From Sphaerodactylus townsendi (lineage: Eukaryota), in NCBI RefSeq assembly GCF_021028975.2, contig NC_059437.1, positions 21,762,001 to 21,826,000 of the forward strand: a DNA stretch of 64,000 nt, given 5' to 3'. The first letter of the stretch is position 1, and each line of letters begins with the position of its first letter. Of the stretch, positions 3,292-39,575 are shown piece by piece. Position numbers and translations under genes: made by a program. Below the pieces are notes generated by a model that had not been told where the DNA came from, did no database searches, and saw only the letters and a program-made list of their open reading frames with translations.

Positions 3292-4115
3292 AGATTTTAG
3301 AACTGATTTTAGAACTGATTTATGTAATTATGTTTGATATTTTAGTCTTTTTAACCTTGGTTGTAAGCCACGCTGAGCCCAACTCTGGTTATGAATTGGA
3401 CAGGATATAAATTTAATAAATTTAAACAAAACTTGCAATATGGAAGTGATCAGCTTCAGTTCTAGTTCTCTATTCCAGTCATAGTAAATAAGCACCCCTC
3501 TTAATAAATTATATATACTCTAGAAAGCTGTCTGTGAAAAAAAAACATAATGTAAGCCGGATGTTGGTTTGAATACATACATATATATGCATATGATATT
3601 TTGTGATGAGTATTCTGATTTAGAGCAACAGATTGCAATGATAAAGGCAAAGGAGCAGCAGTCAAACAAGCCATCTGCTGAGTTCCCTGGAGAATTCAAC
3701 TCTAGAAGAAATAGGTAACTGAATAGACTTGAAAATGGATACACACGCCATTAGCTAAGCAACAGCATGAACGTTGGGGGGTTACTATCAACAAAAAACA
3801 GCCACAGCAAAAAGAGGGGAAAAATCCATCGGAATTCACGAAGGCACAGAGAAAATGACCTCAGGCTTCAAACTACAGCAGTTGTGCATGGAGGTATGAA
3901 TTAGGATAGTAGTTATAGTGCTGGATTAGGAACTGGGTTCAAATCCTCACCCATCATACAAGTCATTGGGTGACCATGCGGCAGTCATTCTCTTCCAACC
4001 TCACCTATCTTACAGAATTGTCATGACATTGGGAAGGGAGCACATGCATTACCCTGAGCTTCCTGGACAGATAACAATACATGATAAATATAAAGACATA
4101 ATGACAAACAATAGG

Positions 4116-4162: not shown

Positions 4163-6329
4163 ATCTATCTATAAACCTGACGTTCTTGGACTCAGATGTT
4201 CTCTTCCTCTTTCTGTTGCATGCTGTGCACAGATCAATGACTTCCCCATTTAGGAAGACTTCTCCCTAATAACAATTTATTCGATAACCAAATTTGTTCT
4301 GGAAAATTAGTGTTTGTTTTCTGGCCACAAACAAACATTGCAAACTTCAGTTTAGTCCTAGTTTAGAAGCCAGGTCTGGGAGGAGGAAACAAAGCAAAAC
4401 TTATTAGCGCCTAATTTGCATGACACAACAAATCAAGGGTGGTCAAAGACTTCTTAAACTGAGAGGTTTTCAGGTCAGGCTCCACAGATTGATGGGGGTG
4501 GGGAGGGTAACATACTCAGGGGTTCGGACTCATTTATATCAAATACAAATGATGGATCAAAGATGAACTGTGGTTTGTTTGTGACATTGTCATACATATA
4601 ATCAGATTATTCACCAAGCAACAACTTCTTTTATTTTCTTTACCAGGACTACAAAAGGCAACAAGATGATCAAGGTGTCAAACGCCTTCCGGTAGTGGAA
4701 GAGGCTCCTGCATTTGGGAATTTATAGTTTACAGGGGAAAAGATGACTCAACTGAGTAAAGAGATCATGAGCAGGATTCTGTGAAAGTGACCAGACTGAA
4801 TGCCTGGTGGCAAGAACCAGCAAGGAAAGGAAGTAGTGGAAGGGTAACACAAAACATGATAGGACAGTTTGAGTAGCTGCCAAGTACCTGTAGCTCGTGA
4901 AAAGGACTTTATACAACTCTTGAATAATTTGTCCATCAGGGGACCACCATTGGACTGGTTTGAGTCAAGCTATGTGAAGCACTAATATCCAAATCTCTGC
5001 AAGACCAAACTTGCTACAGTAAGCTCTAGAAACAACCTGAGGTATTATATATGCAATCCGCTGCTCTAACCCTTTCCTTCCATTAATCTCTGGCCTTTCT
5101 CTGTGTTTTAGTGACCCTCTGTTAATCCTGAAATTTCCCTGTACATTCTGAAACCCTTTTTTTTAAAGTAGTGCAGAGGGTTATCAAGATTTCAGAAGAG
5201 TAACTAAGGGCAAAGAGGCATTTCTATGGAACGTGTTAAAGATTTAACTCTTGGTTATACCGATTAAAGGATTAAATTGCTCCCAAAGAGAATTTTTAAA
5301 AGCATCTATTGGGCTTACTTTTTAATATTTTCTCAGAACAACTTTAGTGAACAACAACGTATCTGTATTTTCCTTTTTTAAGGCAAAGTAATTGCCAACT
5401 TTAATATGCCATTTAATTGTTTGCAACAAAAGGAGGCAGAAGCAGTGAGCCAGCAAAATGGTAATTGCATGTGTTGAAAAACCAGGAAGGGAGAGGGACA
5501 ATATTTCCCTGCCCTTCTCTTTGTGGCACCTCTGAACTTTACAGCAGGCTATCAGAGGGATATTGTGGCTTCTGAGTGTCCTGTGTCTATAAGGACCACC
5601 TATCTGGAATCACTACTAAGTCCTTAAAAAATCCCAGTGCATCCATACTTTACATGTCAAAATAGGTTGCCCGAGAACTGCTGCCCTTCAAATTTTGCCT
5701 TCTAATCATGCCAGCTTGTATTTCGTGCCAATGCTGATCAATAGTGAAAGGGATAATGAAGCTCCTTCTTTTCAGCATGAATGTTGGAGGTTCACCCTTT
5801 TCTTTGTGGTTCTGCCTCCATGGCTCCAGGGACACAGATAGATCTCAGCTTGTACTATGAAGCTTTTCTTAGCAACCAACAAGGCTGAATCTGTTCTAAA
5901 AAGAAAGCTTTGATTACATTTTTTAAAGAAAATAAGCACCAACATTTAAATCCTTGGGAATTTCCCCAGCTTTCAGATATTGGCCTATCTTTTTGCACCA
6001 TCAACATTTCAGGGTTACATTTGGTTGCTTATTGGTAGTCTTTGTTCGTAGTTAATAGCACACACAACATCATCCTTACTGACAGTATGGATATTAAAAG
6101 TGACTCAATTGCAGAATACCATTCTAAAAATTTAAGCCAGAAACTCTGTTAAATAAATTTTGAGGGAAGCAGCAGGTTAGCAGCTGCAGCTAGAAGCTCA
6201 TTTTAACACTGCTGAAACAAAACAGTTCCTGGTAAGTGCAAAGGGCCAAATTAGACATGATAGAGAGCACAGCAAGATGCAAAACATTGACCCAGGACTG
6301 TACCTCTAGCCAAGCAACCCCAGCAGCTG

Positions 6330-30437: not shown

Positions 30438-30951
30438 TGTTGGGATAAGTGCTCCTGGTAGTTGGAGATTATCTCTTTATCGTAGTTAGCAGAGCGGCAC
30501 GGGTGGCTAGAACACAGCAGAAGCCCTTACCTCGTGTGCGTGCGTGTGCGTGATGAATCCCAATGTGCGGCAAGCTTACACAAAAGAAAGTCGGAGTCAG
30601 TTATAGTTTCTTATCTAATAAAAAGAGTATTTATTAGTGAACTCCATTCTGGATAGAAAGGTAGGTAGATAGAGTCACCATGTTAGTTTTACCTAGCTGG
30701 ATGGAGATGGATGCGAGGAGCATCCATCCTCTCTCTAGGCATGGTAGGAAGAAGTGGGAGAAGGGGTCGAGGAAGAAGCCGGAAGGAAGGAAGTCCCTGA
30801 GAGTATCAGTCTAACATCAAAGGGATAGAACCAGCATGATAGAGTAAAGGTGTCAAATCCTTAGGTCCCTATCTAGCCACTAGCTCTCTAGTAAAACCCC
30901 CTCTGTAGGTTGAGGCAGGAAACAGCGTAACAAAGTCCTTCACTTCCAACA
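30438..30951 (-). repeat. 3' LTR of the copia element (514 bp)
   Basis: Starts TGTTGG immediately after the PPT and ends CCAACA (6-bp terminal inverted repeat); minus-strand AATAAA at ~30635-30630. Confidence 0.88.
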
Positions 30952-32847
30952 CCCCCTCTCGATGTTTCTTGACAGGCTTATCTTGCTTCTAAACTTCTCA
31001 AAAGCAGGTTTCGCTAGGGGTTTAGTGAAGAGGTCTGCAAGCATCTCAGTGGTGTGACAGTAGATCAGTTGAATGAAGCCATTCTTTTGCAGTCTTCTCA
31101 CTATGTGGTATTTCACATCAATGTGCTTGGTGCGCTTCTTCACATCTCCTTGTTTAGATAGTTTAATGCAACTTTGGTTATCTGCATACACTGGTATAGG
31201 AAGTGGTGTGTCTATGCCTAGATCCTTTAGGAGTTGGCATAACCACTGTAACTCGTGACAAACGTGAGCAGCAGACACATATTCTGCTTCTGTGGTAGAT
31301 GCTGCTGTTATGTCTTGTTTGGTACTAGACCAACTAATAGGACCATTACCAAAGAAAATGATCTGCCCATTGGTAGATGCTCTGTCAGTTGAGTCTCCGG
31401 CTCAATCTGCATCAACATAAGCTATTAGTGTAGCATCTTTGGTAGCTGGCAGTTTCAATTTAAGATGTGCTGGGTTCCTTTCAGATATCTATAGAAAGCC
31501 GCTTCAGTGCATTCCAGTCCTTGACTGTTGGTGAAGCAGTCTTTCTGCACAATAGACCAACTGCTATTGCTATATCTGGTCTGGTCAATGTACTTATGTA
31601 TAGAAGTTTTCCTAAAGCTTCTCTATATTTGGTGTTATGAGAGAGTAATTCAGTGGGATCATCTTGTTTGATATAATTGACTTGTATAGGTATGGGAGCT
31701 GGATGTGCATCGTGTAGATCCAGTAAGTTGATTAGGTCTGTAATCTTCTGTTGTTGATTCAAAAGGAAACTCCCATCTTTCTCTCTCTCTATTTGAATTC
31801 CTAAGTAGTGTGCAACTTTTCCTAGTTGCTTAATTTCAACTTGTGTGCTAAGATGGTGTATTAAGTTCTTGTAGTCTTCTGTGTTCTCGTAGACTAGAAG
31901 TAAATCATCTACATATGCTAAAATATAAGTCCATTGTCCATTTTTGTTCTTGACATAAAAGCATGGGTCAGCCTCACTTCGTTGAAATTTTGCTTCAAGT
32001 AACATTTGGTTCAATTTTGTATTCCAAGACCTCGCAGCCTGTTTCAGACCGTAAAGAGAGAGTTGGAGACAACAGACGTAATTTTCCTTGCCTTTTGCTT
32101 GAAATCCAGGAGGTTGCTGCATAAAAATCGTCTCATCCAAATCACCATGTAAAAACGCAGTCTTCACGTCGATGTGCTGAACTTGCATCCTTTTGCTCGC
32201 TGCAATACTCAGCAAAGTTCTGACTGTAGTGTGTTTCACAACAGGGGCGAAGGTCTCATCATAATCTTCTCCATATTTTTGAGAGTAGCCTTTAGCAACC
32301 AATCTTGCTTTGTAGCGTTGCACTTGGCCATCTGCATCATGTTTCAGCTTAAAGACCCATTTACAGCCAATTGCCTTTCTTCCTTCTGGTAATTTCGTTA
32401 AAGTCCAAGTTTTATTCTGTTCTAAAGAGTTCATCTCATCAAGTGCAGCTTGCTTCCATCTCTGCGCCTCTAGTGGTGGAAAGTGGGATATATCTTCCCA
32501 TGACTTCGGTTCATCTAACGCCGAACTTGCGAGGTAGGAAATTCCCAGTCTTGCAGGTGGTACTCCTTTGTTTGTGCGTTCTGATCGTCTCACCTCATCT
32601 CTTGGGATTTCTTCCCCCTCTGCAACTGCTGCTGGTATTGGTAGGTACTCTGGTTCAACATCTACATCTGGAATTTCTTCTGGTTCATCAAATACATCTT
32701 GGTTATCATCTAAATCTGCGCTGTCATCTCTCTGTGCATCATTGGCAACAGGATACATCAGCCAATCTTGCTGGGGCTTGGTCTGGTCATCGTGTGCCCC
32801 CTCTGGAGACATGGCCATTTCATTTTCCTCAAAGTAAACAGATCTGC
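30438..32847 (-). mobile_element. Ty1/copia LTR retrotransposon, 5'-deleted (RT, RNase H, PPT, 3' LTR)
   Basis: ORF 31481-32818 has copia RT motifs (GCKWVFKLK, RYKARLVAKGYSQ, DVKTAFLHG, LYGLKQAAR, YVDD); RNase H motifs KRTKHIDVKYH and ADLFTKPL in 30940-31278; frameshift near 31490 and DADW->DAD* stop near 31403; PPT GAGAGGGGG at 30960-30952. Confidence 0.95.
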
Positions 32848-32896
32848 GGAATTGTAGTTCCTGAACATCTGGAGAGCCGCAGGTTCCCTACCCCTG
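32848..32896. mobile_element. Right half of the palindromic hAT MITE family (same as 54364-54511)
   Basis: GGAATTGTAGTTCCTGAACATCTGGAGAGCCGCAGGTTCCCTACCCCTG is identical to the end of the 54364-54511 element. Confidence 0.92.
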
Positions 32897-32930
32897 TTCT
32901 AAGCCCTTCAATTATAAAGTGTGACATTTG

Positions 32931-33360
32931 TTTTAGTGCTGCTGGGACAAGGGAGTGGCCCTTTCCATAAAAGAAGCGTGCAATGGCAGAATAACTGATG
33001 GTAGCACCTGCAATAGCAGCTTTTTTGTGGGGTAACCAGGAGAGGTTATAAGAAAATGTAATTCCAAGATATTTGTATTGGTTAACCTGCTCCACTGGCA
33101 CTTTATTAATCGCCCAGTTATGTTTTTTGTATTGTTTGGCAAAGATCAAAATTCTAATGGTCTTTGATAATTGATGACTAGTCCGTTATCTGTACATGTA
33201 CTGCCCACATCTATTCAGCAGTCGAAAGCTAAGTCCAACTTTTTGAGCGAGATAGAAGGATGGTATCATCAGCATATAGAAGTATTGGAATATGCCTTGG
33301 GCCTAATTTAGGGGCATGGTTATTAATTTCCAATAAGGCTGATGGAAGGTCACTCAAAAA
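32931..33360 (-). mobile_element. RTE-X-like LINE, inverted segment part 2 (RT C-terminal half)
   Basis: Minus strand LSDLPSALLEINNHAPKLGPRHIPILLYADDTI ... EQVNQYKYLGITF ... VPAALK; continues in frame from the 36417-36869 segment. Clade assignment is tentative. Confidence 0.88.
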
Positions 33361-36300
33361 CCCTGGATTACAATTCCTGGTAGGAGGTTGAGACGAAGGC
33401 GGGATAGAAGGAGGAAGAGAGGGCGCCGGGCTGGTGTTTTTACTAAGCTGGGAAGGTGTAGTTTCAAGTCTGCACTTCCAAGCATTTTTCTTACTAATGC
33501 ACGATCTCTTAGCAACAAAATGGATGAATTAAGGCTACAAATTGTGAAGAGCAGATTTGGCAAGAACAGCTGTGTTTTATTAATTACAGAAACCTGGCTT
33601 CACTCACATTCCCGATTCAGCAGTTGAACTATCTGGTTTCTACTTCTTTCCGGCAGGACATAAGCCAGAAGTAAAGTAAAGATTCTGGGAAGCATAAAGG
33701 AGGGGGTTTAAATCTCTATGTGAACAAAGCTGGTGCACTAATGCAAGCATCACAGGGGGTCACTGCTCAAAGGGATTTGGAAAGTATGACTATTAGATGC
33801 AGACCCATATATCTGCCACGGGGAGTTTAGTGTGGTTATCATCAACATTGCAGTATACATTCCACCTGATGCTAATGCTGCCATAGCTTTGAGCTTTCCT
33901 CTGTATAACATTGTTGAAAACCAGCAGAAAAAAGCATCCTGATGCTGTGCTCATTATAAGGAGGAGACTTTAATCATACTAATTTAAAAACAGTTGGCTC
34001 CCTAAACTCTACTCAGCATGTCAGGGTGTCTCCCACTAGAGGAGCCAATACATTGGATAAAGTGTATGTACACCAACATCAAGGGATGCTCTACAAGGTG
34101 ATACAGTTACCACACTTGGGTCAGGGGTCAGACCATTTTATCCCACTTTGTTTCTGGCACCAGCATATATTTATTCCACTTGGGCACCCAGGCGTAAGGT
34201 GTTGCCTGTAATAAAGACTGTAAAATCCTGGCCTGATGATGCCTCTAAACGCTACTTCAAGATTGTTTTGAGACAACAAATTGGGATGTTTTCTACCACC
34301 CAGATCTGGAGGAGTATACCACTGCTGTTCTGAGGTTATATCACCCACTGCACAGACACTCTTACTGTGTATAAAAGTTTATCCGGATTTACTCCAACCA
34401 TAAACCCTGGATGGACAAAGGGAGGTTCATGCCATTCTTTGCATGACAGGAATATTGCTTTCAGATCTGGTGATGAAATTGGCAAAGTATATAGTGCTTG
34501 GCCGAGAGCCAGTCTCTGCAGAGAGGCGATTCGACAAGCCAAGATGAGTTATAAGAGAAAAATTGAAGATTATTTTAATAATAACAACATGAGGCAGGTG
34601 TGGCAGGGAATTCAAACAAATTACCAACCATAAACCAAACAAATGACATTTCTGTGGATGGGGATTCTTCTCTGGCGGAGGGAGCTAAATCACTTTTTTG
34701 CCCGCTTTGAAAACAGGTCTATCAGAAGCCGAGATGACACACAGCCACCAGGGTGATTGCAGCTCACACCTCACCTGTGGAGGAACATGAGGTGAGGCAA
34801 GTTTTGAGGGCTGTGAATCCAAGGGGAAGGCTGGGCTGCTGGGACCGGATGGTATTCCCGGTCGGGTGTTAAAGAAAGGAATGCACTAACCAACTGGCTG
34901 GTGTTTTTACTGGGATCTTTAATCGATCTTTATCCCAGTCCACCATTCCATCTTGTTTGAAAGCTTCCACCATTGTTCCACTACCAAAGAGAGATTTCCT
35001 GCTGACAATCTTCAGGATTATACGCGAACCAGTGGCACTCACCCCCATCATCAATGAAGTGTTTTGAAGAAACTGGTCCATAGGCATATTAGTTCTTGCC
35101 TTCCAGATACATTTGATAAACTATCCAGTTCGCATATCCGGACTAATAGATCTAATGGAGGACGCCATTGCCATTAGCCTCCACACAGCTCTTGACGCAT
35201 CTGGGAACAGCACAGGAATTATGTGCGACATGCTCTTTATGGACTTTTTTTAGTTCCGCATTTAATACAATCTCGCCACAAACACTGGTGACAAAACTAT
35301 GGTAGCTTGGACTCTCACATTCAATCTGTTTGTGGATTAGGGACTTCTTGTCTGGGCCAGTTCCCAGAGGGTTAGACTAGGAAATCGGGTTTCCTCCAGT
35401 TCTTACTCTAAATATGGGAACGCCACAGGGCTATGTGTTGAGCCCTTTACGGTTCACCCTTGATACATAGGATTGTACTCCTGGCTATCATAATAACACC
35501 GTTATCAGATTTGCGGATGACACCACGGGGGTGGGGCTCATCTCTGGAGGGGATGAGTCTGCCTATCGGAAATTGAAGTGGACCGAAGCTGCTCTCATGG
35601 TGCAGGGAAAATAACCTTGGTTCTTAACACTAACAAGACAAAGGAGCTCATAGTGGACTATTATGGTAAAGGAATAGCTCAGAAATTCAGCCCTTTGACT
35701 ATGCAAATGGAGATCAAAGCAGAGCGGGTGGCTAGTTTTAAATCTCACTGGAAGTTATGATTAAAGAGGATTTGACCTAGGGGAGTACAGACTACCGTGG
35801 TGGTTAAAGAAAGCCCAGCAAAGACTGTACCTTTCTGAGACTTTTAAAGGAAGCTTAACAACTAGATGGAAAACTTCTGAGGTGTCCTTTTGCAATCATT
35901 AAAGCTATAGAGAGTGTCCTAACCTACTGCATCTGTGTATGGTTCTCCAGTTGCACAGTGGCCGAATAGGAAGGCAGCTCAAAGGGGTGATCAATGCTGC
36001 ACAAAGGATTATCGGCTGCCCTCTCCCCTCGCTTGGAAGAAATCTATAATGCCCGAAGTCTAAATAAAGCCCAAAATATTCTAAGGGACCCGTCTCATCC
36101 AGCACACTCTCTTTTTAAACTGCTACCATCTGGCAGACGATACAGGGCCCTCAGAACTAGGACAAAGAGGCTTAGAGACAGCTTCTACTCTAGAGCTGTG
36201 GCTATGCTAAACTCCGCTGCTTCATATTGATGTATTTGGGGCTATGTAGGGATGGGTGGAGGATGATGATGTATGAGTCTGAAATTGCATGAGTCTGAAA

Positions 36301-36416
36301 TTGTATGAGTCTGAAATTGTGTGCATCGAGGAATGCTGCTGTAAATTTCGTTGTGCGTGCACAATGACAATAAAATGCTTATGCTTATGCTTATGCTTAT
36401 GCTTATGCTTATGCTT
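33361..36416 (+). mobile_element. Rex1/Babar-type LINE, near full length, many frameshifts in this assembly
   Basis: Basic RRRRDRRRKRGRRAG...LPSIFLTNARSL N-terminus; APE motifs ITETWL, GDFN, TRGANTLD, SDH; RT motifs GPDGIP, PVALTP, SAFNTI, GTPQG, FADD; C-terminus LPSLEEIY...DPSHPAHSLFKLLPSGRRYR typical of Rex1/Babar; AATAAA plus (ATGCTT)7 tail at 36369-36416. Confidence 0.88.
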
Positions 36417-36869
36417 AAAATAAATTGAAAAGGGTTGGTGCTAACACACAGCCTTGCCTCACACCTTTAAAGGTAGAAATAGAATCAGTCATGAGACCTT
36501 CACGTGAGCACTTAACTCTGCAGTTTGTGTTGGTATAAAGTTGCCTGATTAGAAAAAGAAGTTTATTGTCTATTCCTTGTATAGCCAATTTATTCCAAAG
36601 ACGTTCTCTAGAGACTGTGTCAAAAGCTGCCTTCAAATCAATGAAGGCAGCATAAAGTTTGCTTCTTGGACTTTTGGAGTATTTATTAACCAAATGCGTA
36701 AGAAGCATAGCATGGTCTAACGTGGATTTCCCCCTCGTGAAGCCTATTTGCTCTGGGCCAATGATGTTCTGATGAATCGTCCAGGCCTGTAGTTTGGGTA
36801 GAAGTGTCTTAGCATATATTTTCCCAATGACTGATGTCAAACTAATTGGGCGGAAGTTGGCAGGATCCA
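36417..36869 (-). mobile_element. RTE-X-like LINE, inverted segment part 1 (RT N-terminal half)
   Basis: Open frame DPANFRPISLTS...QIGF...AAFIDLKAAFDTV...GVRQGCVLAPTLFNLF (N-terminal RT motifs up to the QG box). Confidence 0.92.
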
Positions 36870-37502
36870 ATCTTTAACTCTAAGATAGAAGTGCAGTTAC
36901 TTTATGGAGTACCTATCTGGCTCCAAGCAGTTGACGACTCCTTGAATACTGTCCAATCCAAATTTTTCCGTAAAATTATGGGCCTGCCAAATTGTGTACC
37001 ATATGCGGCCCTCTGTTTAGAACTGGGCCAAAATTCATTAGTTTATAGGGCTTGGTTGAGAGCTTTTAAATTTTGGCTTCGCCTGCATTTCTCGCATGAT
37101 GAGCACTCGCTGATTCACCTACTTTTGTCTGATACTCAGGCTAATCCATGGTTCTCTCTGATCGAAAGAAAGATTGAATCACTTGGTATATCTCTCGACT
37201 CGCTTTTCCCGCTATCTAGTTCAGAATCCTACAACTTGTTAAAACAAAAATTGTTGGAAAGCGAATGGATTAATTTATTTAGGGCTGCTATGAAAACTTG
37301 TTCACCCTTACATCTTTCAATACCCCTATATCAAAACAGGATGGCTCCCTATTTGTATTTTTTGACTAATCCAATGCAGAGAAGAGCCCTCACACTTGCT
37401 CGCTTCAATGTTTTCCCCTCCGCTTTATTGCGTGGTAGATTTAACAACTTGGAAATGAGCGAAAGGGTATGCTCTTGTGGTGAACAACAAATTGAAACAT
37501 TG
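36870..37502 (+). mobile_element. RTE-X-like LINE, sense 3' segment (post-RT region, truncated at the CCHC knuckle)
   Basis: Open frame IFNSKIEVQLLYGVPIW...RRALTLARFNVFPSALLRGRF...ERVCSCGEQQIETLD; followed by the TSD GACATTTGTTTT (37503-37514, also at 32923-32934). Confidence 0.88.
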
Positions 37503-37519
37503 GACATTTGTTTTGTCCC

Positions 37520-37878
37520 AACCTGGTTGACTCAGGCTAGCCTGATCTCATCAGATCTCAGAAGCTAAGCAGGGTGAGTCCTAGCTAGTACCTGGTTGGG
37601 AGACCACAAAGGAATACCAGGGTTGCTATGCAGAGAAAGGCAGTGGCAACCAACCTCTGGCTCATTCTGCACAGGCAGAATAATGCACTTTCAAACTGCT
37701 TTCAGTGATCTTTGAAGCTGTGCGGAATGGCAAAATCCACTTGCAAACAGTTGTGAAAGTGGTTTGAAAATGCATTATTTTGCATGTGCGGAAGTGGCCT
37801 CTATTAGTCTCTTGCTTTGAAAATCCTACTGGGTCTCTGTAAGTTGGCTTTGACTTGATGGCACTTTACTCACACACA
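37520..37878 (+). mobile_element. 5S rRNA-derived SINE split by a Harbinger-like MITE
   Basis: CCTGATCTCATCAGATCTCAGAAGCTAAGCAGGG...GGGAGACC...GGAATACCAGGGT matches 5S rRNA; the tail resumes at 37800. Confidence 0.82.
37659..37799. mobile_element. Harbinger-like MITE copy 1 (inserted into a 5S-derived SINE)
   Basis: TIR GGCTCATTCTGCACAGGCAGAATAATGCA / TGCATTATTTTGCATGTGCGGAAGTGGCC; 3-bp TSD TCT; near-identical to 38694-38834. Confidence 0.8.
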
Positions 37879-38272: not shown

Positions 38273-38693
38273 AAGGAGTAGACCAGATGACCTGTAAGTT
38301 TCCTTTCAACTTTAGGCCTCATTGTGCATACTTGTCAATAGTTAGACAACCGCTTTCACAGCAGTGCATTGGCAGACTTTATATACAAGTCACAAACTAG
38401 TGTTTGCTCTTTACCCTACAAACCAGGATTTCTGGATGGGTTAATGCTGAATGGGAATCCTAGTTTTTAGGGAAGACAGAAACCAGTGACAGCAGAGAAG
38501 TCTCCAATTATTGACCTGTATGGGAGAACAAGAGGGAATGGGATGAAGGGCTTGAATACCAGGATCTCCCAGGGTCATTCCCATAAGGATACACAGTGGT
38601 GGGGATTGAACTCATTTAAAGTGAAGCAGGCCTTTGTGCAAAATACTGCTAATCAAGGAGTGGCATGTTAGAAAAAAATGCTAAGAACGTTTT

Positions 38694-38834
38694 GGCTCAT
38701 TCCGCACCTGCAAAATAATGCACTTACAAACTGCTTTCAGTGCTCTTTGAAGTTGTGCGGAATAGCAAAATCCACTTGCAAACAGTTGTGAAAGTGGTTT
38801 GAAAACGCACTATTTTGCCTGTGCGGAAGGGGCC
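38694..38834. mobile_element. Harbinger-like MITE copy 2
   Basis: Same sequence family as 37659-37799; 3-bp TSD TTT. Confidence 0.8.
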
Positions 38835-39575
38835 TTTGATTGAATGAACCTTTTTGACATGACTGAATACTGGCCACCACAAAGACATTTGGGCTGATTG
38901 CATTGAACCTTTTTTTCTTAAGGGTTTTGTCTAACTTGGAACTGCCACATTTGCCTGGAAATGTTGCTTGGGGCGAACTTGGGGGGAACTTTACACCGTG
39001 CAGAACTCAAAAAGAAACATTTTGCCGCTCTGATCTATTTCGGCTTTCGATTGCAAACTCCTCAGCCGTTTTTGCCCAAGAAAAAAAAAACAGTTTAGCC
39101 ACAGGCAAAATTTGGTGGCAACTCTAATCTGAAGAGCATCTACATTTAAATGGATGGCGTTATTAGAATGCCAGGGGGATTTTTTTCCAGGGCTTTACCT
39201 CAGTGAATATATCTGAAAATTCACCTAATTAGACATAGGGGAAGATTTTTCAAAGTGATAATTTTGCACATGGCTTTTCTCTCCTTTTCTCTCCTCTTGC
39301 TTCTTGTTTTGTCTCTCTCCCACACATGACTACTGTTGCCACTGACTGTAATTTAAGCTGCTCACTGCCTACAGGCAAAGTCTTCCTTTGAATATCTGCC
39401 CCACATTTCAGATTCCAATCTGTTGCACTGCTGGAGCAATGTTTGGAATCCCAAAATAGGCTCTCAGTAAAATCCTGAGAACATTTTTCCTAGGAATAAG
39501 CTTCACTGAATAGACCTGAGTAGGATTCTGAGTCAATCTGTTTAGGATTACTCTCTTTGTGGGACAGATGATAAT

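What the first reader, a model, noticed from the sequence alone, without database searches (positions are those of the whole stretch)
32923..37514. Twin-priming 5' inversion with internal 3' priming in a non-L1 (RTE-X-like) LINE
Seen: after removing the Rex1 insert, the structure is TSD (GACATTTGTTTT, 32923-32934), inverted RT segment, sense 3' segment, same TSD (37503-37514). The inverted part ends ...GCA CTA AAA (PAALK) at 32931, overlapping the TSD by TTTT, and the sense part begins ATC TTT AAC (IFNSK) at 36870. The two appear codon-contiguous, which is the geometry predicted by twin priming. The 3' end stops inside the CCHC knuckle (CSCG...ETLD) with no UTR or tail, so first-strand synthesis was also primed internally. 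Established: twin priming is described mainly for mammalian L1. Inference: this clade can integrate by double internal microhomology priming, independent of its 3' tail, which I have not seen described for squamate LINEs. This is the strongest mechanistic novelty in the window.
Basis: partly seen in the sequence, partly recalled or inferred. Interest (0 to 1): 0.7.

Follow-up and report, generated by a model that had tools for sequence, protein, structure and literature searches.

The report
Doubly internal twin-primed non-L1 retrotransposon
A tail-less, half-flipped copy of a young non-L1 jumping gene sits between two identical 12-base target repeats, likely because both cut DNA ends started copying from inside the same RNA, and flipped copies of this kind, known mainly from mammalian LINE-1, make up roughly a tenth of the long copies of this family.

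Summary
The structure is real as assembled: 12-bp target duplication, 871 family bases inverted (later split by Rex1), 635 in sense, contiguous in intact copies, with the last 312 bases and the (TTA)n tail missing. The element is a young two-ORF LINE outside L1, RTE-X-like. The larger result is family-wide: 8 of 76 long copies and 3 of 40 fresh copies are inverted, and 4 of 76 are tail-less with a target duplication, so this locus is the expected overlap of two family habits. Pairing at the priming ends far exceeds chance. 'Independent of its tail' is not shown, since the tail may still load the enzyme. The empty site and long-read support are untested, and the assembly is noisy inside the locus. 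One non-L1 inversion is already published (Nimb-2_DR), and this scan noted single twin-primed RTE copies on other genomes. New variant of a known mechanism.

The parts
32923..32934 (+). Left copy of the 12-bp target-site duplication; its last four bases (TTTT) pair with the internal A-run of the element (ref 4732-4735)
32931..33360 (-). Inverted piece, first half (ref 4735->4313), RT thumb region ending PAALK; 9 indels at 33152-33240 look like assembly noise
33361..36416 (+). Later nested Rex1-type LINE with (ATGCTT)n tail and AAAA duplication (33357-33360 / 36417-36420); 146 extra bases against 99.9%-identical relatives, likely unpolished long-read sequence
36417..36868 (-). Inverted piece, second half (ref 4316->3865), RT core (Pfam RVT_1); its end at 36868 is the 5' truncation point and inversion junction
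36869..37503 (+). Sense piece (ref 4735-5369), IFNSK to CSCG...ETL, stopping inside the CCHC knuckle; 312 further bases incl. stop codon, 3' UTR and (TTA)n tail absent
37503..37514 (+). Right copy of the duplication; its first five bases match the element (G, one bulged C, ACAT; ref 5369-5374)
37514..37631 (+). Right flank: older 5S rRNA-derived SINE (about 85% to other copies); not part of the insertion
32848..32896 (.). Left flank: fragment of a high-copy short repeat (MITE-like), fused to the cut end of a copia element; not part of the insertion

Best explanation
This is a tail-less, part-inverted copy of a young non-L1 (RTE-X-like) LINE between 12-bp target repeats, likely made in one insertion event in which both nicked DNA ends primed reverse transcription inside the same RNA. 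Shown: the anatomy, the contiguity, pairing of 4 bases at one end and 1 (5 with a bulge) at the other, and the recurrence of each half-feature in the family. Inferred: the endonuclease nicked first at the TTTT end, which annealed to the internal A-run and copied 871 bases toward the 5' end; the second nick, 12 bases away, annealed 635 bases downstream on still-free RNA and copied back until it met the first priming site; the two cDNA ends were then joined; Rex1 inserted later. The order of the two primings is less sure (about 70%) than the double internal priming itself.
For: Anatomy. TSD length fits the family: among 122 tailed copies with a 10-18 bp duplication the commonest lengths are 12 and 13. 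Inverted copies: 8 of 76 places with an RT motif (7 with TSD), 3 of the first 100 of 356 places with a 3' motif, 3 of 40 fresh places plus one unclear. Pairing at the TSD end of the 10 inverted copies with TSD: 0,3,2,4,4,4,2,2,3,4, sum 28 against 3.5 by chance, 0 of 100,000 draws. Tail-less copies with TSD: 4 of 76 and 1 of 40; pairing at their 3' break 6,0,3,2,1, sum 12 against 1.8, P 6e-5. Pieces abut within 20 bases in 8 of 12 inverted copies. Order: 0 of 122 TSDs start with G or C, the base before is C in 55 and G in 6; the site scores 3.9 bits read from the TTTT end against -7.2 (12-bp) or -0.2 (11-bp) as read; leave-one-out 79 of 122 versus 1 of 122 for the cautious version.
Against: No locus-specific junction was seen in reads (about 1x of one run, 15 of 140 joints shown). 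The assembly carries 158 indels inside the locus. The inversion junction has no exact microhomology against the reference copy (3 bases only if the source had a variant seen in 2 of 50 rows). The 3' pairing needs a bulge (or a one-base assembly loss). The site profile is biased by pairing with the (TTA)n tail: on the two upstream bases alone the support for the reversed order is only 12 vs 2 and 3 vs 0 of 122, and 1 of 4 tail-less controls (L202) scored better flipped although its orientation is known. Two inverted copies (L183, L265) and six tail-less copies (L181, L184, L185, L194, L218, L266) showed no TSD.
Confidence: 0.8

Rival explanations
1. Ordinary tail-primed twin priming, followed later by a microhomology-guided deletion that removed the last 312 bases and the tail between G(C)ACAT in the element and GACAT in the right repeat.
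For: The same short homology is expected from such a deletion; tailed inverted copies are common in the family; tail-less copies without TSD, probably deletions, exist.
Against: The deletion would have to stop within the first bases of the TSD, here and in four other copies (L186, L200, L202, L264); a tail-primed TSD starting with G was seen in 0 of 122 copies.
Confidence: 0.07
2. The template was an already broken RNA ending near ref 5374, so one primer annealed to its free 3' end rather than internally; the rest is twin priming.
For: Gives the same DNA; L200 ends with two extra A and no pairing.
Against: Breaks of the five tail-less copies are scattered (ref 4224, 4489, 4543, 4926, 5369) and mostly show pairing; PMC5322556 (passages) found no truncated-RNA intermediates for L1-made tail-less copies. 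Not separable from the best explanation by sequence alone.
Confidence: 0.07
3. Assembly artefact: a chimeric or folded-back long read joined pieces of different copies.
For: Insertion-rich noise over 33150-36050; no junction reads seen.
Against: An artefact would not give a family-typical TSD, 1-base abutment and pairing at both ends; the sequence around all junctions is indel-free (0 indels in 36100-37503, 33300-33499 and before 33152), which fits polishing anchored on real junctions (inference); 11 other inverted copies exist.
Confidence: 0.04
4. Dual priming on two separate RNA molecules of the family.
For: Postulated for L1 in PMC2837659 (passages); cannot be excluded by sequence because copies are nearly identical.
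Against: Two RNAs give no reason for the pieces to abut within one base, here and within 20 bases in 8 of 12 copies.
Confidence: 0.02

Closest known systems
5'-inverted (twin-primed) human L1 insertions (model of Ostertag and Kazazian 2001, paper not held, seen as described in passages of PMC2912911, PMC12016303 and bioRxiv 10.1101/2024.08.27.596794)
   Same: TSD around two oppositely oriented pieces of one element, near abutment with small deletion or overlap, pairing at the TSD end, frequency of the same order (18-22% of L1 in PMC12016303; 3-10% here)
   Different: Element is outside L1, has a (TTA)n tail; in this copy neither primer used the tail, and the first nick was likely at the 'inverted' end
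Internally primed / tail-less retrocopies made by L1 (PMC5322556, passages; Srikanta 2009 seen only as a reference line)
   Same: No tail, TSD intact, target complementary to the RNA at the break, A-rich preference
   Different: Those are credited to L1's relaxed machinery and are not inverted in the passages read; here a non-L1 LINE does it to its own RNA, combined with inversion
Twin-priming variants with a poly(T) head (PMC2837659, passages)
   Same: Order of priming inferred from which end resembles the nick site; no microhomology at the inner junction
   Different: There the first primer is in the poly(A) tail; here both are in the coding body
One 5'-inverted Nimb-2_DR insert in DT40 cells (PMC4245944, passages)
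   Same: Non-L1 LINE with a ~12-bp TSD giving an inversion; the paper proposes that long overhangs are needed
   Different: A single engineered event; the paper states that inversions were otherwise seen only with L1 in human cells, whereas this family shows 12 natural ones
RTEX clade (Repbase; RTEX-2_Acar named in PMC4476161)
   Same: Two ORFs, AP endonuclease + RT + CCHC, tandem-repeat tail, RT near RTE-like proteins, closest named relatives in Anolis and Podarcis
   Different: No curated RTEX sequence was in the tree; ORF1 has no Pfam match, no esterase

Membership tests
Twin-primed (5'-inverted) LINE insertion | TSD around the whole insert | tested here: met
   12-mer at 32923 and 37503, family-typical length
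Twin-primed (5'-inverted) LINE insertion | Two pieces of one element, opposite orientation, abutting in the source | tested here: met
   ref 4735->3865 and 4735-5369; contiguity in reads
Twin-primed (5'-inverted) LINE insertion | Pairing between TSD end and start of the inverted piece | tested here: met
   4 bases; family sum 28 vs 3.5
Twin-primed (5'-inverted) LINE insertion | Microhomology at the inversion junction (frequent, not universal) | tested here: inconclusive
   0 against the reference, 3 with a variant seen in 2 of 50 rows
Twin-primed (5'-inverted) LINE insertion | First primer on the 3' tail (classical form) | tested here: not met
   tail and last 312 bases absent: works like twin priming, is a variant
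Twin-primed (5'-inverted) LINE insertion | Empty site with one copy of the target | not testable with these tools
   no related genome held; no such joint among those shown
Internally primed (tail-less) insertion | No tail, intact TSD, target complementary to RNA at the break | tested here: met
   1 exact, 5 with one bulge; 0.4% of internal positions do as well; four more copies
L1 clade | RT groups with L1 | tested here: not met
   10 L1-type rows incl. rodent L1 form a branch of support 100 without the query (quick tree, SH-aLRT only, no AU test)
L1 clade | Poly(A) tail | tested here: not met
   family ends in (TTA)n
RTEX clade | ORF2 with AP endonuclease and RT | tested here: met
   PF03372, PF14529, PF00078 in the 1105-aa ORF2 of L031
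RTEX clade | Substantial ORF1 (unlike RTE proper, PMC3905857) | tested here: met
   594-codon open frame before ORF2, no Pfam match
RTEX clade | RT groups with curated RTEX elements | tested here: inconclusive
   groups with lizard LINE proteins (100) and, at 88, with invertebrate homologs and two RTE-like domains (RTE label inferred from PF20049 and recall); no curated RTEX row available

The most novel reading that the evidence does not exclude
Twin priming is a routine pathway of a non-L1, RTE-X-like LINE with long target duplications (about one long copy in ten), and this locus records a reversed, tail-free form of it: the first nick primes in an internal A-run and the second primes downstream on the free RNA, so the flipped piece is really the 3' one.
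Probability: 0.55. Interest if true: 0.62.

Novelty: new variant of a known kind. Interest (0 to 1): 0.5.

Why it matters
Papers read here treat 5' inversion as nearly exclusive to L1 in mammalian cells, and one proposes that it needs a long (10-20 base) overhang. A natural non-L1 family with 12-14 base duplications and about 10% inverted long copies supports overhang length over clade or host as the cause, and makes that testable within one genome that also holds short-TSD LINEs such as Rex1. The single locus adds a form in which neither primer uses the tail. It has no evident function for the host.

Tried and rejected
Reads: four runs confirmed family contiguity but showed no locus-specific or empty-site joint among the rows displayed; depth about 1x, short right flank, so no verdict. 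Using flanking repeats to rebuild the empty site failed: the left flank is a cut copia plus a repeat fragment, the right an old SINE, and no other copy joins them. Search for an RTE (BovB-type) reference in the genome: PF20049 rang nowhere, controls included, and P0063 pulled CR1-type copies. First tree left L1 on long unresolved branches; replaced. Local RNA folds round the two priming sites were no stronger than shuffles (z -0.11, 0.04; one search used wrong coordinates): the A-run is mostly unpaired in the model, but this is weak. An automatic count of distinct loci failed, so counts are given per sample. The first microhomology count scored three copies 0 because of homopolymer slips; corrected, both significant. 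A cluster of 5' ends near ref 3857-3878 was noted but not tested. A full-length consensus was not needed; one natural copy served as reference.

Full report
Observation. The 12-mer GACATTTGTTTT occurs only at 32923 and 37503 in the window. A search of the own genome with the sense piece found a young family (1255 candidates, best copies 98-100% identical) whose match stops at window 37507. One copy, L031, is full length with a 594-codon first frame and a 1105-codon ORF2 carrying AP endonuclease, RT and a CCHC knuckle, and ends in (TTA)n; it served as reference. Against it, window 32931-33360 and 36417-36868 are ref 4735->3865 inverted, and 36869-37503 is ref 4735-5369 in sense. The two parts overlap by one base in a five-A run. 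The last four TSD bases pair with that run. At the other end the TSD start matches G, skips one C, then ACAT (ref 5369-5374); the C is present in 177 of 184 rows in the usual form (rows not deduplicated), so it is a bulge or a one-base assembly loss. Only 0.4% of internal positions match as well. The final 312 bases are absent. Rex1 (33361-36416) sits in another A-run with a 4-base duplication and is a later arrival. Raw reads of run X16 join 32931 to 36870 on opposite strands (54 reads) and 33356 to 36417 (59 reads); these come from ordinary family copies and confirm contiguity, not the locus.

Family background. Of the copies fetched, 122 distinct tailed ones had a 10-18 bp duplication, most often 12 or 13 (copies without a clear duplication were left out of that count). 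Three motif-defined samples were examined. RT motif, all 76 exact places: 8 inverted (this locus, L183, L197, L199, L206, L219, L222, L228; 7 with TSD), 4 tail-less with TSD (this locus, L186, L200, L202), 5 tail-less without a TSD or a continuation within the fetched downstream stretch. 3' motif, first 100 of 356 places: 3 inverted (L183, L226, L228). Middle motif, the 40 not yet seen among the first 100 of 148: 3 inverted (L265 without TSD, L293, L295), 1 unclear (L288), 1 tail-less with TSD (L264), 1 without (L266). Samples overlap; in all 12 inverted copies, 10 with TSD, and 5 tail-less with TSD. Pairing at the priming ends is far above chance (sum 28 vs 3.5; sum 12 vs 1.8); non-inverted copies average 1.25 bases at the 5' junction by a cruder measure. 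With 7 of 75 and 3 of 75 as separate rates, about 0.3 double events are expected among 76 copies (my arithmetic), so one such locus needs no special pathway.

Which end was first. None of the 122 tailed TSDs starts with G or C, and the preceding base is C in 55 and G in 6. Scores: 3.9 bits against -7.2 or -0.2; in leave-one-out tests a gap of 4.1 bits favoured the true orientation in 79 of 122 and the false one in 1. The profile is partly shaped by pairing with the tail; on the two upstream bases alone the counts are 12 vs 2 and 3 vs 0, and one of four tail-less controls scored better flipped. I put the reversed order at about 70%. It also makes mechanistic sense (inference): once the first primer copies RNA upstream of the A-run, the free single-stranded RNA lies downstream, where the second end landed.

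Clade. In an RT tree of 43 domains (quick IQ-TREE) ten L1-type rows form a branch of support 100 that excludes the query; CR1-, L2- and Rex1-type rows lie on another (94). The query sits with lizard proteins (100; Anolis and Podarcis relatives at about 46-52%) and, at 88, with invertebrate homologs and two RTE-like domains. With a long ORF1, which PMC3905857 gives as the contrast of RTEX to RTE, RTE-X-like is the best label, but no curated RTEX row was available. The host is called a lizard from these relatives and earlier scan notes; not tested.

Assembly. The Rex1 copy has 146 extra and 3 missing bases against a copy that is 99.9% identical to its own relatives; 158 indels fall in 33152-33240 and 33500-36099, none in 36100-37503 or 33300-33499. 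The junctions lie in clean sequence, which fits real junctions but is indirect. An earlier scan note (e1-9312534) also called this assembly patchy. The empty site could not be tested.

Literature (passages only, by term search, for all papers cited). PMC4245944: inversions were seen only with L1 in human cells except one Nimb-2_DR insert (TSD peak about 12 bp), and long overhangs are proposed as the requirement. PMC2912911: early top-strand cleavage could be nearly exclusive to L1. PMC12016303: 18-22% of human L1 insertions inverted. PMC5322556: tail-less copies by internal priming, tied to L1, also detected in anole. [quoted passage not shown] PMC5389967 states that all truncated anole LINEs kept their 3' end; it and PMC6007223 mention twin priming only in references; PMC13295347 has no hit for inversion; PMC4476161, PMC5753468 and PMC11203168 gave RTEX context. 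Searches found no report of twin priming in RTE/RTEX or squamate LINEs, nor of a doubly internal event; three key papers were not held and supplements were not read, so absence from print is not established. This scan noted single twin-primed RTE copies on two other genomes (e1-9339800, e1-9059193; unchecked).

Verdict. The claim of tail independence is not shown. The family-level frequency is the more valuable result. New variant of a known kind, interest 0.5.

Noticed in passing
window 30438-32850: 3' half of a young Ty1/copia element on the minus strand (one LTR, RNase H and RT region, 95-98% to the closest copies over the stretch searched), cut inside integrase and fused to a 49-bp repeat fragment; no second LTR in the window.
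   Followed up: partly
window 33150-36050: Insertion-biased noise (146 extra, 3 missing bases against a Rex1 copy whose relatives are 99.9% alike): apparent frameshifts and low identities inside young repeats of this assembly are likely sequencing error, not age.
   Followed up: yes
L031 minus strand (G000:C7): Full-length family copy with both frames open (594 and 1105 codons); ORF1 has no Pfam match. The family looks recently active.
   Followed up: partly
L176, L178, L201, L224, L291 and window 36868: Six 5' ends fall within ref 3857-3878, just downstream of an A-run: possible RT pausing spot; not tested against chance.
   Followed up: no
L183, L219, L228: Inverted pieces that come from the extreme 5' end of the element with 1.5-3.1 kb missing between the pieces.
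   Followed up: partly
L245 and L227: L245 has a direct internal duplication (ref 4374-4938 before 4392-5684); L227 has a 419-base internal deletion with a 12-bp TSD: possible template jumps.
   Followed up: no
L098: A copy flanked by a 40-bp direct repeat, far longer than the family's usual duplication.
   Followed up: no
window 37658-37800 and 38693-38835: Two 143-bp palindromic MITE-like copies, 92% alike, the first inside the tail of the 5S-derived SINE.
   Followed up: no
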